Source of the DNA: an uncultured virus (IMG/VR IMGVR_UViG_3300025121_000046)
Lineage: Duplodnaviria > Heunggongvirae > Uroviricota > Caudoviricetes > Crassvirales
IMG/VR virus record: IMGVR_UViG_3300025121_000046
Direction: 5' to 3' (one strand)
DNA: 20,000 bases
The notes below the pieces were generated by a model that saw nothing but the letters and a program-made list of their open reading frames with translations, was not told the origin of the DNA and searched no databases. A program made the position numbers and the translations under genes. Positions 1,355-20,000 of this stretch are shown here, one piece after another (position 1 is the stretch's first letter; each line of letters opens with the position of its first letter).

Positions 1355-2839
1355 TTAATTCAATACGCTTGGTTTAATGGTAGCGCACCTGGTAGGATCG
1401 TTAACCAGACAACCGCCAACGAATGCACGGTGGAATGTGTAGCCATCTTCAGGAGAAGACATGAATCTCCGTGGTCCCTGTGCCTGGAACGGATCTCTCA
1501 AACCGGGTTGATAACCCATGAAATCTTCCATTCCTTCATTATATACAGGACGGATATTATCCTCTCCACCGGTACGTCCAACATTAAGGATCTGGTATAC
1601 ATAACTCTGTGCAACACCTTTTCCGGATGGATGCATGATCTTATTACGTTCCCTGTCATCAAATGTTGAATCAACCATGACACCAAGTTGTGTTCCATCA
1701 GGACCCCAGTATTCTACATAGTTCTCATGATATCCCCAGCCATTACCGGATTTATATTTCTCATCTCCGGAATAGAAAGGTGTATAGAGAGTAGTATAGT
1801 TCTTGATTGCCTTATGGAAGTTATATGCTCCCCACTTACCGGTACGCATGATCACTTTTCTTGTCTGACCATAACCACCTTTAGTATCATCGGTAAGATC
1901 CATGATAGCTTCGGTAAGCCATTCGATATCAACATCAAAATCATTGTAATAAAGAACATTCGATGCTTCAATCTGCTGTTCGAGGCCGGCACCCTGTTCG
2001 ATCTTGAACCCGCTGTAACCAATTTGCTTGAAAGTACCATCGTCTGCACGGTTGGTAGTTGCAAAGTTGATCAGCTTATCCTTCATATCCTGGAACTGTG
2101 TTTCAAATTCCCAGTCTGCATACTGAGTCCATGTAGTCATGATTTTCTCTTTGCCATTCGAATCCATTGCCTTCCATGAGAAAGCTACCGGCCTTGAGAT
2201 CATATTACCTGGTCTGGTGTCCTGCATCCTGATCATCGAGAAGGTGTTCTTCATCGAGAAAGGACTGGTATAGTTCGGGGTTCCACCTTTTATTGATAGT
2301 GTCTTTTCAACAATGGACCATTCTTTTGAAAACCTTTTTCCGGCTACGAGTTCATCGTAAGGAATATAGAGATCAGTGTCTCCTGTGAAAAGTTCGCATT
2401 CATAATCCCACATGGTCCCGTTTGGAACCGGTATAGCTACAATCCTGATCGGGTATACAGAATTCTTTTCACCAACTATCAGGTTAGTGTCTGAGAAATA
2501 CTGTTCCGGGAATGTAAGAGTAAACCTTGCACTGCTACGGCCAACCTGTGAGGTTGCAGAAATAGCACTGCCATTTACTGTACAAGCAATCAAAGGCACG
2601 TTCTTTTTTGAAGAACCCTGTAGCCTCCAACGAAAATCGTCATCTGTCTTTAAGGTCAGAGGACTGAATTTCTGAAGAACAAGACCGAAGTTTGTTCCCC
2701 TGTTGGCGCGATACAGCATGTTGATCATCTGGCTCGTGTCCTGTGGTTTGTTTTGATAGATCGCACCCAAGTGGTTTTTGGTTGTTAAACCAGACCAGTC
2801 TTTGGGTTCATACTCCTGAAGTGGTGATACTCGTTGCAT
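1355..2839 (-). CDS. Major capsid protein (crAss-like)
   Basis: 494 aa; N-terminal W.GLT..NHLG motif typical of crAss MCPs, GAGLEQQI and C-terminal NDPTR; position after portal and the acidic protein. Confidence 0.9.
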   Translation of the reverse strand: MQRVSPLQEYEPKDWSGLTTKNHLGAIYQNKPQDTSQMINMLYRANRGTNFGLVLQKFSPLTLKTDDDFRWRLQGSSKKNVPLIACTVNGSAISATSQVGRSSARFTLTFPEQYFSDTNLIVGEKNSVYPIRIVAIPVPNGTMWDYECELFTGDTDLYIPYDELVAGKRFSKEWSIVEKTLSIKGGTPNYTSPFSMKNTFSMIRMQDTRPGNMISRPVAFSWKAMDSNGKEKIMTTWTQYADWEFETQFQDMKDKLINFATTNRADDGTFKQIGYSGFKIEQGAGLEQQIEASNVLYYNDFDVDIEWLTEAIMDLTDDTKGGYGQTRKVIMRTGKWGAYNFHKAIKNYTTLYTPFYSGDEKYKSGNGWGYHENYVEYWGPDGTQLGVMVDSTFDDRERNKIMHPSGKGVAQSYVYQILNVGRTGGEDNIRPVYNEGMEDFMGYQPGLRDPFQAQGPRRFMSSPEDGYTFHRAFVGGCLVNDPTRCATIKPSVLN

Positions 2840-6759: not shown

Positions 6760-8886
6760 TTAATTTTTATTACGATTTTCTAACTGAAGTCTTTTATTGA
6801 TTGTTGAGAATGGATTCGATTCCTGTTTCAGTTTTTCCTGGAACATCTCCATCCTTTTAAAGAAAGGGCTTAAAGCATCTTGTGGTTTCTTATCCATGTC
6901 ATCAGGGTGAATATGCTGCATGTCCTCTTTAAGTATCATAAGCATCTGTAAAGCATCAACCCTATCAAAGTTACCCTTTGGATTCCAATATATTAACTCC
7001 TGTAATAAAGGAATTGAACGGATTCTATGGAGATTTAATATTTCACTACCAGGTTCTATAGATGTTGTCAGCCAGATAAGTATTTGTTCTCTTCCCCATT
7101 TCTGTATAGGAGCCGTTCCTGGCGTTCCTTTACCTCTGTTTAACAGAGACTTATCGAATATCTTATCAACGATTATCTTGGGAGTATCACATAGTAAATG
7201 TGCTGAGTGTCTGTTATTTAAATATGTAAATAAACCTTTCCAGTTATTTTCATAGTTACAAATAGCTCTGTAATAGATTAGTAACCTTCTTACTCCTTCA
7301 TAATATTCATTTGCAGTGGAGGGACGACCGGTATATTCTGCAACTATCCTCTCCGTAATCCGGTTCATTATGAATGTACTACCAAGAGAATCAGTAGTAC
7401 TCTTATCATGATCATAAGTATCATTACCGGCAATATATATACCCCATGGAATAACACCATCTATAATAACCGGTTGTTCGTATATTATTATTGCACCCTG
7501 CAGATTGCGTTTATCAAGTTCCGGGAACCTTCTTATAGGATGAAGATCGGCACTTGGTTTCCATTCTATCTTTTGTGTCTCTTCATTTATCTCAAGAAAA
7601 CCAACATATTCCTGTTCTTCATATTTTTCAGGATTAGAAGTAAGATGATTAAGATGATGTTTAAGATCATTGATAGGAAAGATAGTCCCACCAATACGCA
7701 TAACAGCTTCCTGGGGTGTACGTGGTTCTTCTGCAATGAATCTTATAATGGTTTCAGGGTTCTTTGTTGCTTTAATAATCTTATTCCTTGAATGATCAAC
7801 CATCTCCCTGGCAATATCTTTTAATGAATTTCCATCCTTATCCATTGCTCCTTCAAGATTCTGTTCAATAGAAACAAAATGACCACACTTACTATTCAAA
7901 GATCCTTCATCCCATATATTAGGAACCTGATGAATATTATATGCATCACCCTGGTAGAATAACTGTTCAAGTCCCATAAAATCAGAGTCTTCCGTACCCC
8001 CGGTCCCAAAACTTACGGCTAAACCATGAGTAAGACGACCCTGTTGCATGCTTTTTAACGAGATGTTCCATGCCTGAAGAAGATTAGGATTCTTACCCGA
8101 TTCCTCATAGATCAAAAGTTTACCACCCTTCCCCCTTACTTTTTGATAATCATTCTTCATTGAGATACCCATTATTTCACTCTTGAATCCTTTCTCAATC
8201 TTAAGACCTTTCTGATCTACTATATAAGATGATCTCTTATACATTGTAGTATCATGCTTCTGTCTTCTTTTTCCCCAGGGTGTATGTTGTTCGATATGAT
8301 CCATCATCTCCCATGCTTTTGAGAGAAGACCATCTTCAATAAGGAATGCTTTATCATCTGCAAATACAAAACTCTTGGATCCTGGAATAAGATAATAGTT
8401 CCTATCGCACATTGAACCAGCCTTGTAACTATATCCTCTACGTCTTGATTTAATTACAACGCCATGTTCACCATTTGCTTCTGCATCATCAAGATACCAG
8501 AAATACTGATAATCACCATCCCAGAAATCAGGAAGAGTAAAAACACGATCTGCTTTTGCCTGTTGGTAAAGTTTAGCGACTGCATCCTGATCCGTTTCAT
8601 CATCAGGAATATCAATTTCTATAGCTTTATAAATAGGACTGTAATTAAGGTAGAAATAAAAATAGCCGGGGATCTTATCCCGGCCTATATCATATCCATA
8701 TACTGATCGTCTTGCTTCTTCTTCCCAGAATTTATAATACCTGGATGACGGATGATCATTTACAGGATAGTTAGTATATCTTTCAAACTCGTTAAAATGT
8801 AAAGCGCTCTCGCGCCATACCTCAGTATTATAGTGTAATGTATTCTTAAAATAACCTGTTTCTATAATTGCCTTGTTGTCATCCAT
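6760..8886 (-). CDS. terL: Terminase large subunit
   Basis: 708 aa; Walker A-like VVIKSRRRGYSYK, Walker B LLIYEESG, motif FGTGG, RNase H-like nuclease motifs YIAGNDTYD and NFDRVDA; no intein seen. Confidence 0.93.
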   Translation of the reverse strand: MDDNKAIIETGYFKNTLHYNTEVWRESALHFNEFERYTNYPVNDHPSSRYYKFWEEEARRSVYGYDIGRDKIPGYFYFYLNYSPIYKAIEIDIPDDETDQDAVAKLYQQAKADRVFTLPDFWDGDYQYFWYLDDAEANGEHGVVIKSRRRGYSYKAGSMCDRNYYLIPGSKSFVFADDKAFLIEDGLLSKAWEMMDHIEQHTPWGKRRQKHDTTMYKRSSYIVDQKGLKIEKGFKSEIMGISMKNDYQKVRGKGGKLLIYEESGKNPNLLQAWNISLKSMQQGRLTHGLAVSFGTGGTEDSDFMGLEQLFYQGDAYNIHQVPNIWDEGSLNSKCGHFVSIEQNLEGAMDKDGNSLKDIAREMVDHSRNKIIKATKNPETIIRFIAEEPRTPQEAVMRIGGTIFPINDLKHHLNHLTSNPEKYEEQEYVGFLEINEETQKIEWKPSADLHPIRRFPELDKRNLQGAIIIYEQPVIIDGVIPWGIYIAGNDTYDHDKSTTDSLGSTFIMNRITERIVAEYTGRPSTANEYYEGVRRLLIYYRAICNYENNWKGLFTYLNNRHSAHLLCDTPKIIVDKIFDKSLLNRGKGTPGTAPIQKWGREQILIWLTTSIEPGSEILNLHRIRSIPLLQELIYWNPKGNFDRVDALQMLMILKEDMQHIHPDDMDKKPQDALSPFFKRMEMFQEKLKQESNPFSTINKRLQLENRNKN

Positions 8887-11161: not shown

Positions 11162-13681
11162 TTAAGAATTACTTTTTGCTTGCCCAATTCTTTTTACAGT
11201 TACTCCATCCTGATCAGAAATATATCTGAAAGGATCTATCACTATACTTCCTGCAGGAAACATGCAGTTCCTGAACACTTCATGCTTAGTTCCTATAAAG
11301 AATATTCTTGCATCACCAAGAAATTGATATAGCTCATTTTCTTTCTGACCTGAATTTGGATCCAATTCTCTGCTCTTGCTGAACATATATACAGGATCAA
11401 CCCATGGATCATACATCTTTATTTGTTTCTCGTCTATCCCTCTGTCAATTAATAAAAGTTCTTTTAATAAAAGAGATGGACTACCTATGGTAAGATTTGT
11501 TTCCGGTTTGAATGTATAGCCAAGGATCATAATATCAAGATTACAGTCATTATTGAAATACTCATCTTCTATAAGCTGAGCAAGCCATTCTGTCTGTTTC
11601 TCCCGGGCCATCATAAGATTCTCCCACCAGTCATAAGAGATATTGAGTTTCTTTGCAATATGACTCAGGGCAATATTATCCCTGGGATGACAATTATGAA
11701 CTGTACCACAAGGTACAACATAAGTATTATGTCTATCAATCCAGAGATTATAAACTGGTCCTTTAAACCATGTTTTATGTATCTGTATTATATGACGAAA
11801 AGTTCCTTTATTGGTGACTACATAGTTTTGAATGTCTACTGGATTTTCAATTTTATCCCATCCAATAATATCACATAATTTAGAAGCAAGATATTTATTT
11901 CTAACTCTTACTTCATATGCTTTCTTATGAATACCTCTTGGTGGGATAACCCTCAACGAAGGACAAAGATCAAGACGATGTAGTATTATAAAACTCCCCC
12001 AAGCAAGATCTTTCGAAATTGTACTATATGAAATTCCATTCTTATTTCTATGTCCATCTCCAAGAATTAATCCTTTCAAAAGCAATAGCGATTGTTTTGA
12101 CCATAAAATTTGAGGAGGAATATATTTTGTAGCTGCGCCTTTACCAAAATCATTAAATAATAATTCTGCAAGTCTTTTTGATCCAAATCTTACAGATAAA
12201 CTATTCCCTTCTATTTTAATAGTAACTCTTGAAAAAAGACCTCTTAAATTTTTCCTTTTTGGAATAAGACCAAATCTCTCTGATGTTATTCTTTCAATTA
12301 ATTCTTTAATTCGTTCAGCATACATCATTTCTTTTGCATGCAAATCGAATCTTATTCTTCCCCTTCTCGAATTTAATTCAAGAGATCCCTCGCTTAAATA
12401 CCAACCTGCAAGTTCAAGATATTCAGGAGGCATTCCAGGTTCTCTTCCTTCGTTAATCTTAGGCCAATACAACATATTATCATATGTTAGATCTGATGCT
12501 TTTATCTCATTGTCATCTGACATCAATTCTGATATCTTTAATAAAGTATTCCTTCTCCCATCAGGAACCCTTGTTCTCAAATCAGTTGAAGCAATAACAG
12601 GATGATCAGCAGTCATTAATGTATGAGGAAGTCCTTTTGTTTTTAACAAAATCATATCTCCTTCATAATCCCTTACATATGTTTTTATTACTTTGCAAAA
12701 TTCACCATTTCCCGAAAGCACCATGTCTCCTTCATTTATTTCTTCGATAGGTTTCATTCCATTATATGTCATTACAAGTTGTCCTGCAGGAAAACAGCCG
12801 CCTCCATCCCCCATTCCTGCTCTCATATATGAAGCTGAAATGATTCTCCTATCAGCTAAGGATAAAGCATCAATAAGATGATCCACATCGGCTCCGGTCT
12901 TTTCACATAACTCCATAGCTGCATTAGCAAAGCAGATCTTACCTGTAATGTAAGTATTGTATAGGACCTTGATTGCCTCAGCTGTATTGATAGAGCATTC
13001 AAACACTTTAGGAAAATAATCAGCTTCCCGTGGAAATGGATTTAATACTTTTTTATAGAAATCCTTAACAATTTCTGCAGCATAAGGATCATCAACCCCC
13101 AGGAGAACGAATTCCGGATAAAGGAAATCCTGTATTGTAGTACCCATTGCAATAAAGAATGGATTATAAACAATATGTAGATTAGTTAATTCTTTTGGTA
13201 CTAAAGGAAATATCTCGCGGTACATCGTTCCGGGAAGCACCGTTGATATTATACTTACAACGAATTGCTTCCTTTCTGTTTCATCAGACATTCCATCCAA
13301 AATCATACCATTTATATATTCATTATAATGAACAATCTCCTGAATGATATCCTTCATTCCGGCAATAAGATATGAATAGTCGAAATCCACCCTTTCTTTC
13401 GGAAGAGGTGTTATTCCTTCATACCTGGGATCATGTGGTGTCTGGATAGATACAAAACAGATATCACTTTCTGTAAGCACAGAAAATAGATTCTTTACTT
13501 CTATTTTCGTTTTTTGAAGTAACTCTTCCGCTCCCTCTTCGCGATACGGAATCTTCTTTTCATCGATGTATCTTTGTATTTGTGGATTAACATCATATCC
13601 ACATACCTGATAGCCTCTTGACTCTACAGCGAGAGCACAGGGCAAGCCCAACTTACCTAAAGCCACAAAACCGATTTTCAT
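11162..13681 (-). CDS. UDP-glucose/GDP-mannose dehydrogenase family protein, intein-containing (471-aa extein)
   Basis: Rossmann IGFVALGKLG, ISTVLPGT, YNPFFIAMG, AEAIKVLYNTY, catalytic GGG|CHPRD after intein removal, and ILGYTFKPET. Confidence 0.92.
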   Translation of the reverse strand: MKIGFVALGKLGLPCALAVESRGYQVCGYDVNPQIQRYIDEKKIPYREEGAEELLQKTKIEVKNLFSVLTESDICFVSIQTPHDPRYEGITPLPKERVDFDYSYLIAGMKDIIQEIVHYNEYINGMILDGMSDETERKQFVVSIISTVLPGTMYREIFPLVPKELTNLHIVYNPFFIAMGTTIQDFLYPEFVLLGVDDPYAAEIVKDFYKKVLNPFPREADYFPKVFECSINTAEAIKVLYNTYITGKICFANAAMELCEKTGADVDHLIDALSLADRRIISASYMRAGMGDGGGCFPAGQLVMTYNGMKPIEEINEGDMVLSGNGEFCKVIKTYVRDYEGDMILLKTKGLPHTLMTADHPVIASTDLRTRVPDGRRNTLLKISELMSDDNEIKASDLTYDNMLYWPKINEGREPGMPPEYLELAGWYLSEGSLELNSRRGRIRFDLHAKEMMYAERIKELIERITSERFGLIPKRKNLRGLFSRVTIKIEGNSLSVRFGSKRLAELLFNDFGKGAATKYIPPQILWSKQSLLLLKGLILGDGHRNKNGISYSTISKDLAWGSFIILHRLDLCPSLRVIPPRGIHKKAYEVRVRNKYLASKLCDIIGWDKIENPVDIQNYVVTNKGTFRHIIQIHKTWFKGPVYNLWIDRHNTYVVPCGTVHNCHPRDNIALSHIAKKLNISYDWWENLMMAREKQTEWLAQLIEDEYFNNDCNLDIMILGYTFKPETNLTIGSPSLLLKELLLIDRGIDEKQIKMYDPWVDPVYMFSKSRELDPNSGQKENELYQFLGDARIFFIGTKHEVFRNCMFPAGSIVIDPFRYISDQDGVTVKRIGQAKSNS
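11693..12796 (-). mobile_element. Intein with LAGLIDADG homing endonuclease (368 aa, residues 296-663)
   Basis: Starts CFPAGQLV; block B TADHPV; LAGLIDADG-type motifs LAGWYLSEGS and LLKGLILGDG; ends VYNLWI...TVHN followed by Cys+1. Confidence 0.95.
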
Positions 13682-14307
13682 AATATATGAGTTTTAAGTT
13701 TAAAAAATCCATTAGATTCTTTATTCGAGTTCCAGTTCTCTTTTATCCCTTTCATACTATATCCGGACCATACTACTTCAATAAGATGACTCTGGAATGT
13801 ATTACTCCACCATGTAATATCTTCTCTTATTATATGTGTTGAATCAAGTTCGTATGCTGGTTCGTTATATGTCATGCCATTATTAGACAGTGGTACTATA
13901 ACGAAGATATTATCTGAACAAGATCGGATCTCTTTTATTATATCATTGATCTTATCATAACCAATATGCTCAAGAACATCTTTACAGATGATCCAGTTCC
14001 ATCTTTTCTTTTTCCAGAATTCTCCGCTATAAATATATTCATCTATATCAACAGGTACATTCTCAAGAGCATATTCGCTTATATCATATCCATAGGCATT
14101 AAAACCAAGTAATCGGAAAGCCTTAACAAGATATCCCATTGCGCAACCAAAATCCAAGATGGTATCTTCATCAAGTATTACAAGTTCATTTGATAGTCTG
14201 TATGCCAATGGTATTGTTAATTCAGGCATCCACCGGTACTGAGAATAAAGACTCTTTCCCGTTTCTAATCCCCTGATGTAATAATCCTCATCGTACTTTT
14301 CCATCAT
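13678..14307 (-). CDS. Class I SAM-dependent methyltransferase
   Basis: Motif I ILDFGCAMGYLV, GYDISEYA, DVLEHI. Confidence 0.9.
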   Translation of the reverse strand: MMEKYDEDYYIRGLETGKSLYSQYRWMPELTIPLAYRLSNELVILDEDTILDFGCAMGYLVKAFRLLGFNAYGYDISEYALENVPVDIDEYIYSGEFWKKKRWNWIICKDVLEHIGYDKINDIIKEIRSCSDNIFVIVPLSNNGMTYNEPAYELDSTHIIREDITWWSNTFQSHLIEVVWSGYSMKGIKENWNSNKESNGFFKLKTHIL

Positions 14308-15317
14308 ATAAAGTTTTCATATTCAATCTTTTCTTTGATCCATATAGGATTATCGTTATGCATAAACCCTTCAAGCATATTGACATTATGAGTGAATACA
14401 CATCCCTGGCAATCTCTGTTTGCATTGAAAGGCTGATCTATACTTCTACTCATATATTGCTTTATATCTTTTGCCACGCATAATGCATATTTCATATCAA
14501 AATATCCTGAATTATCGTTTAATGGTATGCTATCACAAGGAAATACTATGCCACCAAAGATCTCACTTAAATATGGACGAAAATATGACTGATGACAGAT
14601 ATTACTTACTGGTGCTTCTTTCTTCTTATGTTGAATAAAGAACCTGTTGTCATATTCTCTTCCAAGCCATTGATCGATCTCTTTATAACTATCTTCAATT
14701 TCTTCGTCTGTTTGCAGACAATCTGGAAGTACCCTGATATACTTTGCATTTATATGATCCGCTATTGTTACAAGATCATCCGGAGCGAATCTTTTATTTT
14801 CCCCTGAATAAACGAAACTCAGTCCTACAGTGGTATTCTTTCCAAATTGCTTACTATTATCCATGAAGGAGCGTATCCAGTAATCATCATAATTGACACT
14901 TACGCGCACCCAGGAGAAAGGATACATATATATATAAGGTATGGTTGTTCCATTTGTTATAAGAGCTATTTCTTTTATTCCAGATCTGTGACTTCTGAGT
15001 AAATGAATAAGTTTATCAAACTGAGGATATAATGTAGGTTCACCACCACCGGTTAATATGACAGCTTTACAGCCAAGATCAACTACATCTTCAATGTATC
15101 TTTTAATAACATCGAGTTCTAATCGTTCATGTTTTGCCCTTTTTATAACACTACAATACTTACATTTAAGATTACATCGGCCTTCAGGTGATATATGAGT
15201 TGAGACTATTGTTCGTGAATAACCTTTTTTGTAATTCTCCATCTGAGATTTATGTCTGAAAAACTTCAATCCTGTTGAAGTATATATGTCTATATTTCTC
15301 ATAATCGTATTCTCCAT
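14304..15317 (-). CDS. Radical SAM enzyme with C-terminal SPASM/twitch-like Cys cluster
   Basis: CNLKCKYC (CxxxCxxC), LTGGGEPTL, LITNGT; C-terminal CHQS...FPCD...CQGC. Confidence 0.9.
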   Translation of the reverse strand: MENTIMRNIDIYTSTGLKFFRHKSQMENYKKGYSRTIVSTHISPEGRCNLKCKYCSVIKRAKHERLELDVIKRYIEDVVDLGCKAVILTGGGEPTLYPQFDKLIHLLRSHRSGIKEIALITNGTTIPYIYMYPFSWVRVSVNYDDYWIRSFMDNSKQFGKNTTVGLSFVYSGENKRFAPDDLVTIADHINAKYIRVLPDCLQTDEEIEDSYKEIDQWLGREYDNRFFIQHKKKEAPVSNICHQSYFRPYLSEIFGGIVFPCDSIPLNDNSGYFDMKYALCVAKDIKQYMSRSIDQPFNANRDCQGCVFTHNVNMLEGFMHNDNPIWIKEKIEYENFI

Positions 15318-16789
15318 AGTCTCTTAGGATAACCAAGTCTATATCTTACAACATCTATACATACCTGTAAAAGCTTCAATTGATAGTGGGCAATATTAGA
15401 ATAAGTGGCATGTTTGATTTTTTCTTCTCTTAATATCTTATTCATATAAATCCCTTCCCTGTTTTTATATTCTATCTGTATCTCTTTAACTGTAGAGTCG
15501 ATAGCATATATCATCTTGTTCTCTTTTATAAAGATAGTTTTGTTTCCTGTATTTTCAATTTTAGTGACATAAGTTTCAAAATCAAAATACTCTTCATAGA
15601 ACTGAGAACCTTTTGTAGGTCTTATCCCCAATGATAACCCACATGTATAAAAAGGATCCTGAATAAATTCTATTGTCTTCTCTATTGTTTCTTCAAGATC
15701 CCATAATAGCGTTCCGGGTGTTATAAGCATCAATGTCATGAATGTTTCAATATTGTATTCCTTCAATTTGACAAGTGCTTCGATATTCTTTTCTGCAGTG
15801 CACTTTTTTCCTATCTCAATAAGTACATTATCGGAGAATGATTCTATACCGATATTGAGTCTTCTGAACCCTGCCTTTTTCATTATAGGAAGGATATCGT
15901 CATTGATATCATCGGCCCGGGCAAAACACATGTACGATAAATCATCAAGTCCTTTATCAATTACTCTTTGACAGAACTGCATAACAGTTTTCTTATTGAT
16001 GCAAAAATCGTCATCGGTAATATATATGGTCCGTACAAGAGGATGTGCCTTCCTTATTCTTAAGATCAGATCCGTCAATATATCGGCATCAATCCCATAA
16101 GAAACTACATTACATCCTGCAGCATCAGGTAACTGATTCGTAGATGTACAGAACTTACAATGATGAGGGCACATGTTACGCGAGTATATCCTTATTGTAT
16201 AGATCTGCTGAAGTATCTCATCGGTAATATTGTCTCCATATTTCTTAAGATAATAATCCCAATATGTTTCATAATTTATATTTTCCCAATCTATCTGAGA
16301 AGTAAATATCTCGAATTCTTCCTGGCTTAGACTTCTTGCTTTATTCTTAATGATTATTCCGGGTATTAACTCAAGATCATACTCATCACATATTAATAGC
16401 ATAGGCATCTCTCCTTCTCCAATTACAACTATATCGCATGGAGACTTATCGAGTATTGTCTGGTAGTTGTACTGAGCTTCTATGCCACCGGCAATAAGCA
16501 TTGCATTTGGAAGAATATCTCTTGTGGTCCAAACATTACTGAGATCTTTAGCAAGTGTCTCTTCAAGACAGGAGAATCCTATTATATCCCAATCTTTCTC
16601 TTTGAGTTTATCTTCAACAGACATATAAGAATCACTAAGATCATGGAGGTTAGGATCGAATGCCTCTGCATAATGACCATTGGCATTAAGTACTCCTGCT
16701 ATCCTGTTAACACCCATAGCAGGACTTACATACCTGCTTTCATTAAGTCTGTTCGAAGAATGCGGCGATATCAGAAGGATTTGTTTCAT
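15299..16789 (-). CDS. Cobalamin-binding radical SAM enzyme (class B methyltransferase-like)
   Basis: B12-domain motifs DIIGFS, LIAGG, DIVVIGEGE; SRNMCPHHCKFC; DDDF; GIESFS. Start moved from 16903 to ATG 16789 (MKQILLISP), a typical family N-terminus with less overlap with the upstream gene. Confidence 0.88.
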   Translation of the reverse strand: MKQILLISPHSSNRLNESRYVSPAMGVNRIAGVLNANGHYAEAFDPNLHDLSDSYMSVEDKLKEKDWDIIGFSCLEETLAKDLSNVWTTRDILPNAMLIAGGIEAQYNYQTILDKSPCDIVVIGEGEMPMLLICDEYDLELIPGIIIKNKARSLSQEEFEIFTSQIDWENINYETYWDYYLKKYGDNITDEILQQIYTIRIYSRNMCPHHCKFCTSTNQLPDAAGCNVVSYGIDADILTDLILRIRKAHPLVRTIYITDDDFCINKKTVMQFCQRVIDKGLDDLSYMCFARADDINDDILPIMKKAGFRRLNIGIESFSDNVLIEIGKKCTAEKNIEALVKLKEYNIETFMTLMLITPGTLLWDLEETIEKTIEFIQDPFYTCGLSLGIRPTKGSQFYEEYFDFETYVTKIENTGNKTIFIKENKMIYAIDSTVKEIQIEYKNREGIYMNKILREEKIKHATYSNIAHYQLKLLQVCIDVVRYRLGYPKRLWRIRL

Positions 16790-17612
16790 TATATATTTTG
16801 AGTAAGATTTTTTCCGGCAACTCCCTTCCATTATATGGTATTGCACGGGATATTGAGGACCTGTATTGTTTTGATATCTCAAGATCCCTGTTATTAGTTT
16901 CATAATCCCATGTCATCCACATATCAAGCCAGTTTTCATCAGGGATCGAGTCTCTTATCACGGCAGAGAACGCGAGGGCTGTAAGATGCTTCCAGTACAT
17001 CACCTTCTCTGATATAGCAAATCCGAAATTATGAACAAAGCTATTGAGGACTTTTATGTTACTTGTCTCTCCATTTCCTTTTGTTACCGGTAATTTTGAT
17101 AAGTTTGTCATGTTCCAGAATACTACTCCTGTCCTGGCTGGTCTTTCCGGAATACGAAATAAATGAGTCTTCCATAACTCTACCTGTTTTGTCTTCGCGG
17201 ATTGATATCCTTTCTCGATAAACTCATTAAAGGATGCTTCAACCTGGTCCTTTCGAAATACATGATCAACTTCCGGGATAATAAATATATCAGGTTTGCC
17301 ATGATTGGGAATGACATAGTTGTTTATAAGTGTGGTGTAAAGATTCCAGGGTACGGAATAAGGATTCATCTCTTTAGTCTGCTCGATAAGGATTATCTTC
17401 GAATTATTAAGATCCCTGATCTTTTGAACCACGTCATCAAACTTCTCAGGAAACTTAATCTTTACACCTTTATATATACACTCAGATACATTTCCCCAGG
17501 GTTTGTTTGTCCAGAATACAAATATTCTATCAACGTGATCAATGATCGATAATATAGATTCCTGAATGTAATCTTCCCCATAGAGACACCGGTAGACCGC
17601 GTATGTTATCAT
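16743..17612 (-). CDS. Putative GT-A-fold (GT2-like) glycosyltransferase
   Basis: N-terminal YGEDYIQESILSIIDHVDRIFV is typical of GT2-like proteins; EVDH lies at the DxD position; late HNFGFA. Confidence 0.6.
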   Translation of the reverse strand: MITYAVYRCLYGEDYIQESILSIIDHVDRIFVFWTNKPWGNVSECIYKGVKIKFPEKFDDVVQKIRDLNNSKIILIEQTKEMNPYSVPWNLYTTLINNYVIPNHGKPDIFIIPEVDHVFRKDQVEASFNEFIEKGYQSAKTKQVELWKTHLFRIPERPARTGVVFWNMTNLSKLPVTKGNGETSNIKVLNSFVHNFGFAISEKVMYWKHLTALAFSAVIRDSIPDENWLDMWMTWDYETNNRDLEISKQYRSSISRAIPYNGRELPEKILLKIYNETNPSDIAAFFEQT

Positions 17613-17830
17613 ATCTTAAACCTGTCAAGTTTCTCCTGCAGTTCCTTTATCCTATCCTTAAGCTGGCCAATAACCATTATAAGTACAAATATTGTCATCC
17701 CGGATACAAGTAACCAGTGACCAATTCTTGGTATACCAAGGAACCAAAGTAACCAGGCAAGAATGGTTGTTAGCCAGATAATAGTTGAAGTCATATTTTC
17801 TTTTAAATAACGTAAAATAATGTTTGTCAT
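17609..17830 (-). CDS. Small two-TM membrane protein
   Basis: Two hydrophobic stretches and a charged C-terminal tail; ATGA-coupled to both neighbours. Confidence 0.65.
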   Translation of the reverse strand: MTNIILRYLKENMTSTIIWLTTILAWLLWFLGIPRIGHWLLVSGMTIFVLIMVIGQLKDRIKELQEKLDRFKI

Positions 17831-18576
17831 TTTGCTGTGTTTTTAAGGTTTAAGTATTTCTCGATTCTCTCCGTGATCATTTCTGCTGTAGCCATCCGGT
17901 TCTTATCGGATAACTTGAATACTGTTGTATCTACATTATGAGTATCATTGTTTCTCCACTGCATGTAGGTATTGTCTCTTGGTGAACTGCCATTACTGAA
18001 ATGAAGATGTTTTATTACTACCTCAGGAATATACTTTGTTACTCCTGTTTTTTTTGCAATATCGAACACCCAGGTATCATGATAGAAGAAATGGAAGCAA
18101 TCAGGAACGAAATATCCCAGGGCCCCGACCCAATGTTTTGTAACTATAGGAAACGCACAATGCTTTTCACCATTTATACTATCATCAAAATAATAACAGA
18201 AAAATGGATGTTCTGCTGCCATCAGTCTTTCTTCAAGGATAATATCCCAATCAGGTGTGATATAAACAAGATCATCATTTCCCATTATAAATACATCAGG
18301 ACTATCGTTCCATGCTTTCATTCTGGCCAGTTCATTCCAGATCTTACCTATCGGCCGGCGTTCCTCTTCAATCATGGTCATTATAATATTGTCATGACTA
18401 TGATCCTGCATCATACGAAGTATATCATAATAGTCTTTTTTCCCTGGATCATCTGAATCTATTCCAAACAGGAAATAGATTTTATTTTGCCGGCTTACAG
18501 TCTTATTAATACTGTCAAAAAACCTGTAAAGCTCTTTTGGTCTTTGTCTTGTTGGTGTAAGGATAGCTATCTTCAT
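17827..18576 (-). CDS. GT2-family glycosyltransferase
   Basis: IAILTPTRQRP, IDSDD, WNELA, MGNDD (DxD-like), FPIV, YHDTW, KHLH. Confidence 0.82.
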   Translation of the reverse strand: MKIAILTPTRQRPKELYRFFDSINKTVSRQNKIYFLFGIDSDDPGKKDYYDILRMMQDHSHDNIIMTMIEEERRPIGKIWNELARMKAWNDSPDVFIMGNDDLVYITPDWDIILEERLMAAEHPFFCYYFDDSINGEKHCAFPIVTKHWVGALGYFVPDCFHFFYHDTWVFDIAKKTGVTKYIPEVVIKHLHFSNGSSPRDNTYMQWRNNDTHNVDTTVFKLSDKNRMATAEMITERIEKYLNLKNTAK

Positions 18577-18881
18577 ATTTTTTTCATTATTAAATTCTTA
18601 AATATTATAACTTTCTCAGCAGTATATGGAGTCCTGAAACTTGTACCAAAAGCATAGAATATAATATCTCTTGTCATAGTGTCATCATCTATATCCGGGT
18701 CAACCCAAAAAGCGCCGATCTCATTTTCATCAATATATAAATCAGTAAGTTTCTCTTTAACATCAAGATCTGCTTTTGTGACTTTGTTTTTCTCAAAGCC
18801 CATAGTCTCATTTTCATCCAGAAGTTTCTGTATCTTTTCTTTCTTTGAAGTATCGACAATATATATCTGTAGTAGTATCAT
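18573..18881 (-). CDS. Hypothetical protein
   Basis: 102-aa ORF, ATGA-coupled on both sides. Confidence 0.7.
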   Translation of the reverse strand: MILLQIYIVDTSKKEKIQKLLDENETMGFEKNKVTKADLDVKEKLTDLYIDENEIGAFWVDPDIDDDTMTRDIIFYAFGTSFRTPYTAEKVIIFKNLIMKKI

Positions 18882-19156
18882 TTAATATAATATTTTGCAT
18901 ATTCATCAATCGCTTTATTGAAATTGATCAATCCCTGTTTTCCAGTAAACATTATATAAACTCTATCTGAAACTACAGGATCACAACCAATATAATAATT
19001 ATCTCTTATTGTAGATAACTTGTTCTTCCAATTGATAGGTTGTACAAGTTGCATAGGGGCAAGTTTGACAGGTTCTTCTGGAATAAGTAGTTTTGGTGCA
19101 ATAACACCAGCTGCTACAACTGCAGGGATTAACCTGAGAAATTTTCGTCTATCCAT
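18878..19156 (-). CDS. Small protein with twin-arginine-like leader followed by MCP- and TerL-like peptide fragments
   Basis: MDRRKFLRLIPAVVAAGVIAP leader; internal similarity to this window's MCP (see findings); overlaps both neighbouring genes. Confidence 0.75.
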   Translation of the reverse strand: MDRRKFLRLIPAVVAAGVIAPKLLIPEEPVKLAPMQLVQPINWKNKLSTIRDNYYIGCDPVVSDRVYIMFTGKQGLINFNKAIDEYAKYYIK

Positions 19157-19532
19157 AAATTAATGAAATATCATATATCCCTAATTCTCTCCTTTTTTTT
19201 ATTATCTCACCTATTTCGATAGGCAGATACGCAGTTATTTCTGTAGACATCATAAAGTCATAAAAAACTTCTCGTGGTAAATATTCAGCAAAATGAAACA
19301 TTATATCAGTACATCGTTTTGACCATATAAAACATTCATTTAATTCTTTTCTGAATCGTTGTCTTTCGATATTTCTCTGTCTGAATTCTTCATGTATTTT
19401 TTCTCTGTTCGATTCAATCTCAGACATACATTCACGATATTCTTTGTCTGATTTAATATTATTATTCATATCACTCCATTTAATATAAAAATAGATTGCA
19501 ACGAATATTGGTAATAAATATAATATTTCCAT
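19149..19532 (-). CDS. Hypothetical protein with N-terminal membrane anchor
   Basis: MEILYLLPIFVAIYFYI hydrophobic start, then a charged helix. Confidence 0.65.
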   Translation of the reverse strand: MEILYLLPIFVAIYFYIKWSDMNNNIKSDKEYRECMSEIESNREKIHEEFRQRNIERQRFRKELNECFIWSKRCTDIMFHFAEYLPREVFYDFMMSTEITAYLPIEIGEIIKKRRELGIYDISLIYG

Positions 19533-19733
19533 TTAACTCATTGAATAATTAAAGATTCTTTTCTTTCCGCTTCTTCTCCTTCTGATAGTAGTTCCATTAT
19601 GAATGATACTATAGAGGTTATCATTATGATCGAAATAAGATATAGAAGTTGCAATAAGATTCATAAACTGAATCTCCTCTACACACTGATAATAGTACTG
19701 TCCTGCCTCTTCTATGTAATCAATCCTTATCAT
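19533..19733 (-). CDS. Small hypothetical protein with terminase Walker-like peptides
   Basis: 66 aa; ATGA-coupled upstream and abutting the downstream ATG; contains IDYIEEAG and GTTIRRRRSGK. Confidence 0.6.
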   Translation of the reverse strand: MIRIDYIEEAGQYYYQCVEEIQFMNLIATSISYFDHNDNLYSIIHNGTTIRRRRSGKKRIFNYSMS

Positions 19734-20000
19734 TTTACTTCTTTAAAAAAATCATCAAATCCACTACCATCTCTCTTATCCGGCTGCCTGGTTTCTCTCC
19801 GGACTTTAACTTGCTCAGATTGCTTTATATGTTCAATAGGTCCGGTATTATCGTTACTTCTTACTTCTCGTCTTTCGATTCGTCCGACTTTCTGTATTCG
19901 TTGTTTTCCCCGGACCAGATCTGAACATCCACAGATTACCGATTCATCAACATAGAGTACATTACCATTAATGAACCAACCTCGTATCTTGTTATACGAT
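19730..20000 (-). CDS. Hypothetical protein, 3' part only
   Basis: Manual translation from 19999, open for 89 codons: SYNKIRGWFINGNVLYVDESVICGCSDLVRGKQRIQ...GSGFDDFFKEVK, then TGA (19732-19730) overlapping the next ATG. Confidence 0.65.
   Translation of the reverse strand, partial: SYNKIRGWFINGNVLYVDESVICGCSDLVRGKQRIQKVGRIERREVRSNDNTGPIEHIKQSEQVKVRRETRQPDKRDGSGFDDFFKEVK

What the first reader, a model, noticed from the sequence alone, without database searches (positions are those of the whole stretch)
18878..20000. Candidate locus-level system: an array of mini-genes displaying fragments of conserved virion-assembly proteins
Three of four consecutive, tightly coupled small ORFs carry short peptides matching conserved motifs of MCP and TerL (Walker A, Walker B twice, nuclease strand, two MCP segments) rather than arbitrary positions. 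They lie 10-17 kb from the corresponding genes and are diverged at DNA level. Clustering and bias toward conserved motifs make the pattern stronger than any single match. Inference: a phage peptide-decoy library against pattern-recognition anti-phage immunity, or an inter-phage interference cassette. I do not know of a described system of this form but cannot check the literature.
Basis: inference. Interest (0 to 1): 0.85.

Follow-up and report, generated by a model that had tools for sequence, protein, structure and literature searches.

The report
Export-tagged patchwork of capsid, terminase pieces
One small phage gene here, not an array of genes, joins a bacterial export-type leader to four short look-alike pieces of the phage head protein and DNA-packaging enzyme; relatives mix such pieces in many combinations, which suggests molecular decoys, but no function has been tested.

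Summary
The 'array' is mostly one gene. [quoted passage not shown] They cover 92% of the tail (shuffles 6%), with saturated silent sites against the phage's MCP. Of 24 relatives with this leader, 23 carry at least one piece, 19 two or more, 8 a TerL piece, in 17 combinations (motif windows chosen after seeing the family). The neighbours fail or are doubtful: o2 and o4 carry nothing, o4 is a conserved ordinary gene; o3's Walker A/B likeness is borderline and absent from its one homologue. Unrelated phages show the same design. Best reading, inferred only: decoy or sink for protein-sensing defence (0.42); main rival: poisoning competitors' assembly. I found no paper on it (10 searches). This scan noted o1 and the design before on other DNA; new here are the array test and the terminase-plus-capsid shuffling.

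The parts
18878..19156 (-). o1: 92-aa mosaic mini-gene (Tat-type leader plus four virion-protein pieces); the real finding
   Evidence: family; syntenic homologue P0010 in L076
19076..19156 (-). o1 aa 1-27: twin-arginine-type leader (RRxF motif, hydrophobic stretch, Pro-Lys-Leu-Leu end), no Ala-x-Ala site after the hydrophobic stretch
   Evidence: TIGR01409 E 0.17, under cut-off; RRxF in 20 of 24 family members, Ala-x-Ala in residues 20-34 in 0 of 24
19028..19066 (-). o1 aa 31-43: piece like MCP N-terminus (MCP 3-15)
   Evidence: p 0.0005; own-clade MCPs score best, rank 1 of 44
19004..19036 (-). o1 aa 41-51: piece like MCP 194-204
   Evidence: p 0.001; own MCP rank 9 of 46, distant crassvirus MCPs fit better
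18971..18997 (-). o1 aa 54-62: piece like the TerL nuclease first-aspartate strand (TerL 484-492)
   Evidence: p 0.001; own TerL rank 14 of 34, best donor L112 TerL with 7 of 9 identical
18887..18970 (-). o1 aa 63-90: piece like MCP 325-352 (strand plus helix)
   Evidence: 14 of 28 aa identical to own MCP, 42 of 84 bases; p 0.0005; PF23898 320-345
19149..19532 (-). o2: 127-aa orphan with N-terminal hydrophobic stretch and charged helix; no MCP or TerL piece shown
   Evidence: no homologue in fetched loci
19533..19733 (-). o3: 66-aa accessory ORF; Walker A-like (19566-19601) and Walker B-like (19698-19727) stretches are borderline and not kept in its homologue
19730..20000 (-). o4 (cut; 117 aa in G000): conserved gene of this phage group, weakly like transcription regulators; not a piece carrier
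   Evidence: 4 distinct homologues; homologue hits phrog_7148 E 0.006, phrog_18104 E 0.085; no piece
1355..2839 (-). major capsid protein; template regions aa 3-15 (2795-2833), 194-204 (2228-2260), 325-352 (1784-1867)
   Evidence: PF23898, phrog_11589; PDB 7QOF chain A E 8e-85
6760..8886 (-). terminase large subunit; template region aa 484-492 (7411-7437)
   Evidence: phrog_6681; alignment

Best explanation
o1 is an optional phage gene for a small, probably unfolded protein made of a Tat-type leader and a string of 9-30-residue mimics of MCP and TerL segments (shown). Such genes swap pieces like cassettes (shown as 17 combinations; the swapping mechanism is not shown). Inferred: made before or with the structural proteins, the string binds host defence proteins that recognise short or unfolded stretches of MCP or terminase without giving the full activating shape; the leader then docks the complex at the TatBC translocase or carries it out of the cytoplasm as a passenger, so the sensor is removed from the real capsid and terminase. 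A decoy and sink in one gene, not a multi-gene library.
For: Four pieces cover 92% of o1's tail vs 6% in shuffles. Protein, not DNA, is kept: pS 0.91 / pN 0.36 against own MCP; pS 0.57 / pN 0.25 against homologue P0010. Family tails match MCP in 17 of 29 at p<=0.01, TerL in 4 of 29, six control profiles in 0-2 of 29. Outside libraries agree: 6 of 16 members hit PF23898; of 25 proteins scanned, 6 hit phrog_11589 MCP (E 0.001-0.24) and P0012 hits TerL phrog_38 (E 0.0066). The two donors are known triggers of defence: MCP for Avs7/8/10, Lit and CapRel (PMC13581612, sections 10, 12, 13 read), TerL for Avs1-3 with active-site residues sensed and an 11-residue helix of unfolded nuclease bound by EcAvs2 (PMC13601566, passages). 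One protein carrying both MCP and TerL pieces (7 of 24) fits shared enemies better than one assembly step. Pieces mostly avoid the surface I-domain (crAss001 79-180; PMC10172136, passages; coverage string). Gene is optional (absent at the syntenic site of G002) and sits upstream of the structural genes or beside primase. Tat can carry signal-less partners (PMC4273604, abstract start only) and tolerates about 100-120 unstructured residues (PMC6708511, passages).
Against: No binding, expression or defence data. Avs sensors wrap folded cores over broad surfaces (PMC13581612 section 12-13), so short strings are poor Avs decoys; only motif-type sensors fit. A mimic could trigger rather than block. 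The leader scores under the curated Tat cut-off, 4 of 24 members lack the twin arginine, and none has Ala-x-Ala. Some pieces fit other phages' proteins better than the own, which also fits the interference rival. Conservation bias is mild. pN on pieces is biased low because pieces were picked by amino-acid match. In the wider Tat-leader sample 51 of 60 had no virion-family hit at E<=0.05.
Confidence: 0.42

Rival explanations
1. Inter-phage interference: the pieces swap into nascent MCP or terminase of co-infecting crassviruses, and the leader drags them to the membrane or out, spoiling their assembly (or the pieces set off host defence against the competitor).
For: o1's nuclease piece fits L112-type TerL (7 of 9) better than own (3 of 9); its 41-51 piece fits distant MCPs better; P0010's pieces fit the G006 MCP better (32.5) than its own clade (22.5 or less for that segment). 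Pieces include helix and strand elements of the core fold (low-confidence model).
Against: Other pieces fit the own protein best (o1 31-43 rank 1 of 44, 63-90 rank 2 of 46), and in G007 and L177 the piece is plainly from the own MCP, which would poison self. Short catalytic-motif strands are unlikely assembly inhibitors (inference).
Confidence: 0.22
2. The leader is the working part (it jams TatBC or anchors in the membrane) and the tail is tolerated filler captured from abundant late-gene DNA or RNA.
For: The leader is the best kept part (pN 0.14); many Tat-leader phage ORFs have no recognisable piece (51 of 60; G010's 144-aa ORF; P0032-P0039).
Against: Motif residues persist after silent sites saturate; all pieces are in frame and in the sense direction; the same few segments recur; filler from portal, scaffold or other genes is not seen in this family.
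Confidence: 0.15
3. Helper or timer for the phage's own head assembly: a membrane tether or transient inhibitor that binds own MCP and TerL.
For: Lies on the same strand upstream of the TerL-portal-scaffold-MCP block in G000 and L076; two pieces track the own MCP.
Against: Absent from close relatives (G002 at 88% MCP identity; 1 of 5 records); piece content differs between phages with 90% identical MCPs (o1 vs P0010); beside primase in L002 and L118.
Confidence: 0.1
4. One reading: o3 (and o2 or o4) are also piece carriers, forming a locus-level library.
For: o3 Walker A p 0.0025 and Walker B p 0.0145, with 0 of 343 controls passing both at 0.02. Small clusters do exist elsewhere: a leaderless 55-aa gene next to P0010 in L076 matches the family's MCP 326-352 module (E 0.0006 among about 350 small proteins), and L177 has two Tat-leader genes in tandem.
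Against: o2 and o4 score nothing; o4 is conserved without the motif; o3's homologue lacks both motifs; no Walker B piece in 0 of 24 family members; no genome-wide excess of hits.
Confidence: 0.12

Closest known systems
Twin-arginine (Tat) signal peptides and signal anchors (Pfam PF10518, TIGR01409; Rieske-type anchor PF25471)
   Same: N-terminal RRxF motif and hydrophobic stretch; weak hits to these models in o1 and relatives.
   Different: No folded cofactor passenger; no Ala-x-Ala site; passenger is a string of phage virion-protein pieces; scores under curated cut-offs for o1.
Crassvirus major capsid protein (PF23898, crAss001 gp32, PDB 7QOF) and terminase large subunit (phrog_6681, phrog_38)
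   Same: Donors of the pieces.
   Different: Only 9-30-residue pieces, from two different proteins, out of donor order; cannot fold as HK97 or as a nuclease.
Motif-sensing defence triggers: T4 Gol peptide / Lit, CapRel-SJ46; Avs1-3, 7, 8, 10 sensors
   Same: Same target proteins; Lit and CapRel read short MCP motifs (PMC13581612 discussion, read); EcAvs2 binds a short unfolded nuclease helix (PMC13601566, passages).
   Different: Those are host sensors and triggers; no phage-made peptide decoy against them appeared in the passages I read (PMC13728456, 10.1101/2025.06.06.658234, 10.64898/2026.06.04.730250).
Phage anti-defence mimics (DNA mimics, antitoxin mimics, signal sponges; T4 vs.8 terminase-ATPase-like protein)
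   Same: Small accessory phage proteins that imitate a molecule of the conflict (EVADES preprint and PMC13728456, passages); vs.8 is a terminase ATPase-domain paralogue (PMC13601566, passage).
   Different: Those are folded proteins without export leader; vs.8 activates Avs2; none is a shuffled string of self pieces.
Assembly-interference proteins of prophages and satellites (Tab, Tai, PLE packaging inhibitor)
   Same: Small proteins aimed at virion assembly (search listing and abstract starts only: PMC10884400, PMC11364771, 10.1101/2024.04.22.590561).
   Different: Not shown to be made of pieces of their targets in what I saw; I did not read these papers.

Membership tests
Tat substrate | S/T-R-R-x-F-L-K-type motif in the N-region | tested here: met
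   o1 has D-R-R-K-F-L-R; RRxF in 20 of 24 members; motif from PMC6708511 passage
Tat substrate | Hydrophobic h-region | tested here: met
   best 13-residue Kyte-Doolittle mean 2.23 in o1, 1.63-2.64 in 24 members
Tat substrate | Ala-x-Ala signal peptidase site | tested here: not met
   none in residues 20-34 of 24 members; an uncleaved anchor remains possible
Tat substrate | Curated model score | tested here: not met
   TIGR01409 12.3 bits vs cut-off 16.7 for o1; only P0031 of 15 scanned passes
Tat substrate | TatC-dependent export or membrane insertion | not testable with these tools
   needs fractionation in tat+ and tat- hosts
Crassvirus MCP (PF23898) | Full-length HK97 fold over the cut-off | tested here: not met
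   11.3 bits vs 27, 26 of 496 positions
Terminase large subunit | ATPase plus RNase H-like domain | tested here: not met
   only a 9-residue strand in o1
Anti-defence decoy of protein-sensing systems | Binds a sensor and blocks activation | not testable with these tools
   host and its sensors unknown
   1 of 4 clear, 1 borderline, 2 negative
   L076: two adjacent carriers; G002: none; L002 and G006: single gene elsewhere; L177: two leader genes

The most novel reading that the evidence does not exclude
Tailed phages of many lineages keep a combinatorial 'epitope string' gene class: a Tat leader fused to shuffled pieces of capsid, terminase, portal and tail proteins, which catches protein-sensing immune receptors and uses the host's Tat machine to throw them out of the cytoplasm. 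The pieces would then be a natural map of which virion segments bacterial immunity reads.
Probability: 0.3. Interest if true: 0.93.

Novelty: categorically new. Interest (0 to 1): 0.74.

Why it matters
Phages cannot easily mutate capsid and terminase cores, which bacteria sense. A gene that displays those same segments, in reshuffled sets and behind an export leader, would be a new counter-measure and would point to the segments that sensors read in hosts nobody has cultured. Even if the function is interference or Tat jamming, a gene class built from in-frame pieces of two essential proteins is a gene design I could not find in print. It is directly testable with short synthetic genes in laboratory strains.

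Tried and rejected
Array of three carriers: rejected for o2 and o4, open for o3. Recent DNA duplication or DNA-level decoy (spacer-like): rejected, 50% base identity and 5 of 13 shared codons at identical residues. Assembly artefact: unlikely; one contig spans the stretch and no other letters or indels were listed in 4 runs, all of which may be the source of this DNA. Expression: no RNA holder listed; no evidence either way. Complex of o1 tail with MCP: no verdict. MCP model: pLDDT 47.9, used only for rough secondary structure, no fold search run. ESM Atlas: o1 best 0.88 to unnamed viral clusters, lead only; o3 no usable hit. No family member in GenBank phages (3 chance hits at E 9) or GTDB genomes (0 of 65 pattern hits). 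No further o3 homologue in IMG/VR (1 of 192 pattern hits, the same phage). Promoter and terminator scan at chance level (20 vs 14.2 +/- 4.0; 1 vs 0.9). P0016 is a chance eukaryotic hit and P0015 a leader-only fragment; both dropped before all counts. P0017, P0019, P0020, P0030, P0031 were kept in the 29-set but dropped from the 24-set after I saw they lacked crassvirus pieces. My recalled idea that P0031 carries a G007-type MCP piece was not supported. L077-type leader proteins (P0032-P0039) showed no virion piece in the 3 scanned. RusA hit to the MCP profile is chance. Ten paper searches (two of them for background on fold and Tat) found no description; the library lacks most subscription papers, and I read no supplements, where such genes might be listed.

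Full report
Setting. The window lies in a 51-kb virus record (G000); a 94-kb record, G001, holds the same genes at 100% identity. MCP (PF23898) and TerL (phrog_6681) make it crAss-like; the best GenBank MCPs are 35-38% identical Steigviridae. Runs holding the stretch are labelled groundwater or soil metagenome, and all may be its source. On the minus strand o4, o3, o2 and o1 abut or overlap and lead into sugar-modification genes and then TerS, TerL, portal, scaffold and MCP.

Checking the four ORFs. In a self-comparison only o1 against MCP 327-352 stood out (E 1.9e-4). I built MCP and TerL profiles from fetched relatives (46 and 34 sequences; thinned to 11 and 17 with G006 added) and scored ungapped segments against shuffles. 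o1 has four pieces at p<=0.001: MCP 3-15, MCP 194-204, TerL 484-492, MCP 325-352. They abut and cover 92% of the 65-residue tail; shuffles give 6%. o2 and o4 have none. o4 has four distinct homologues that do not keep the supposed Walker B. o3 is the honest doubt: Walker A p 0.0025 and Walker B p 0.0145, and 0 of 343 control ORFs passed both at 0.02; but the whole-profile p is 0.066 and its single homologue, 38% identical, loses both. Over eight records or loci the number of small ORFs at p<=0.01 was 3 of 99 (G001), 0 of 43, 1 of 27, 2 of 46, 3 of 67, 1 of 92, 1 of 20 and 1 of 10, two tests each; four of these 12 hits are o1-family genes and the rest are at chance level.

What o1 is. Searches gave 3, 19 and 20 hits. 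After dropping a eukaryotic chance hit and a leader-only fragment, 29 tails were tested: 17 match MCP and 4 match TerL at p<=0.01, against 0-2 for six control profiles. In the 24 that remained after removing five without crassvirus pieces, 23 have at least one piece, 19 at least two, 8 a TerL piece (Walker A 4, nuclease strand 5, Walker B 0) and 7 both kinds, in 17 combinations; among 343 control ORFs 20 had one hit at p<=0.0067 (about 23 expected) and 1 had two. The motif windows were chosen after I had seen the family, and members were partly recruited by their tails, so these counts describe the family and are not independent tests. Library hits are independent of my windows: PF23898 in 6 of 16, phrog_11589 in 6 of 25 and TerL phrog_38 for P0012.

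Age and donors. Against own MCP the main piece shares 14 of 28 residues but 42 of 84 bases; pS is 0.91 and pN 0.36; against the syntenic homologue P0010, pS 0.57 and pN 0.25. Donors are mixed: two o1 pieces fit the own clade best, the other two fit distant crassviruses better, the nuclease strand matching L112 TerL at 7 of 9. Used MCP columns are only slightly more conserved than the rest (0.63 vs 0.59), and the outer I-domain (crAss001 79-180, PMC10172136 passages) is rarely used. A low-confidence model (pLDDT 48) puts 242-262 as the long helix and 328-346 as strand plus helix; calling these the spine helix and A-domain is my recall of the HK97 fold, not a call result.

Context in relatives. 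L076 (MCP 90% identical) has o4, an inserted gene, the o3 homologue, a leaderless 55-aa gene matching the family's 326-352 module (E 0.0006) and P0010. G002 (88%) has the flanks but none of o1-o3. L002 and L118 carry single members beside primase; L118's record has a crassvirus MCP.

Beyond crassviruses. A 94-aa Tat-leader ORF in G007 matches that phage's own MCP (34% over 86 aa, E 4e-13; donor phrog_1357). A leader-pattern scan of IMG/VR gave 99 stretches, 80 fetched, 60 distinct small ORFs. Nine of 60 hit head, tail or packaging families at E<=0.05 and 6 of 60 at E<=0.01, all as partial matches (MCP four times, sheath, spike); one of the nine is a generic P-loop. Neighbour controls: 2 of 59 at E<=0.05, one a whole TerS gene; Fisher p 0.027 for 6/60 vs 0/59 and 0.053 for 9/60 vs 2/59. 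L177's ORF matches its own MCP (48% over 58 aa, E 2e-13). Most of the 60 show nothing by this test.

How it may work. Shown: anatomy, shuffling, protein-level retention, optional presence. Inferred: that it is translated, that the leader engages Tat, that pieces bind anything. MCP and TerL are both sensed by host defence; Avs sensors need folded cores, whereas Lit and CapRel read short motifs (PMC13581612, sections 10, 12, 13 and abstract) and EcAvs2 grips a short unfolded nuclease helix (PMC13601566, passages). Interference with competitors (0.22), leader-only function (0.15) and own-assembly helper (0.10) stay open.

Novelty. Ten searches found no description; I read passages of three anti-defence papers and no supplements. 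This scan has noted o1 itself twice and the leader-plus-piece design in at least five other findings; these are unchecked AI notes, and I tested the design myself on G007, L177 and the 60-ORF sample. Verdict: real and strange gene class, wrong unit in the original finding; interest 0.74.

Noticed in passing
window 11162-13681 (-): 839-aa UDP-sugar dehydrogenase-like gene; relatives' copies are 433-463 aa, so it holds an insert of about 370 aa that by eye is an intein with endonuclease; sits in a block of methyltransferase, radical SAM and glycosyltransferase-like genes (13678-18576), labels by eye.
   Followed up: no
L076:5657-5824 (+): Leaderless 55-aa gene just upstream of P0010 matching the family's MCP 326-352 module (E 0.0006); a two-gene cluster.
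   Followed up: partly
L177:1722-2281 (+): Two Tat-leader mini-genes in tandem; the second copies the N-terminus of its own MCP (48% over 58 aa). The first resembles ORFs in L148 and L209.
   Followed up: partly
L150:3759-4187, L203:2135-2431, L141:9586-10029, L132:9709-10029, L210:10001-10369: Tat-type leaders fused to pieces of tail sheath, MCP (three cases) and tail spike. L143, L181, L185 and L204 look by eye like terminase motif carriers but had no PHROG hit.
   Followed up: partly
G010:41395-41829 (-) (L127): 144-aa Tat-leader ORF in a close crassvirus relative with no significant MCP or TerL piece.
   Followed up: partly
window 19798-19902: One contig of run X5 replaces 103 bases of o4 with 175 others, and X3 has a loose end at 19902: a second o4 allele in the population.
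   Followed up: no
L078 and L079: A 158-kb metagenome contig holds the locus twice, about 97.7 kb apart: probably a circular genome assembled past its end.
   Followed up: no
G001:1-10500 (L057): Only short ORFs were listed under code 11 in this part; probably a very long gene running off the contig end, not checked.
   Followed up: no
L077:6-2013: Flank of a leader hit: small ORF, helical accessory-like ORF and a 421-aa ORF that by eye look like a diversity-generating retroelement.
   Followed up: no
TerL of L076, L011, L030, L044, L090, L092, L111: TerL ORFs about 1050-1100 aa instead of about 700, suggesting inteins.
   Followed up: no
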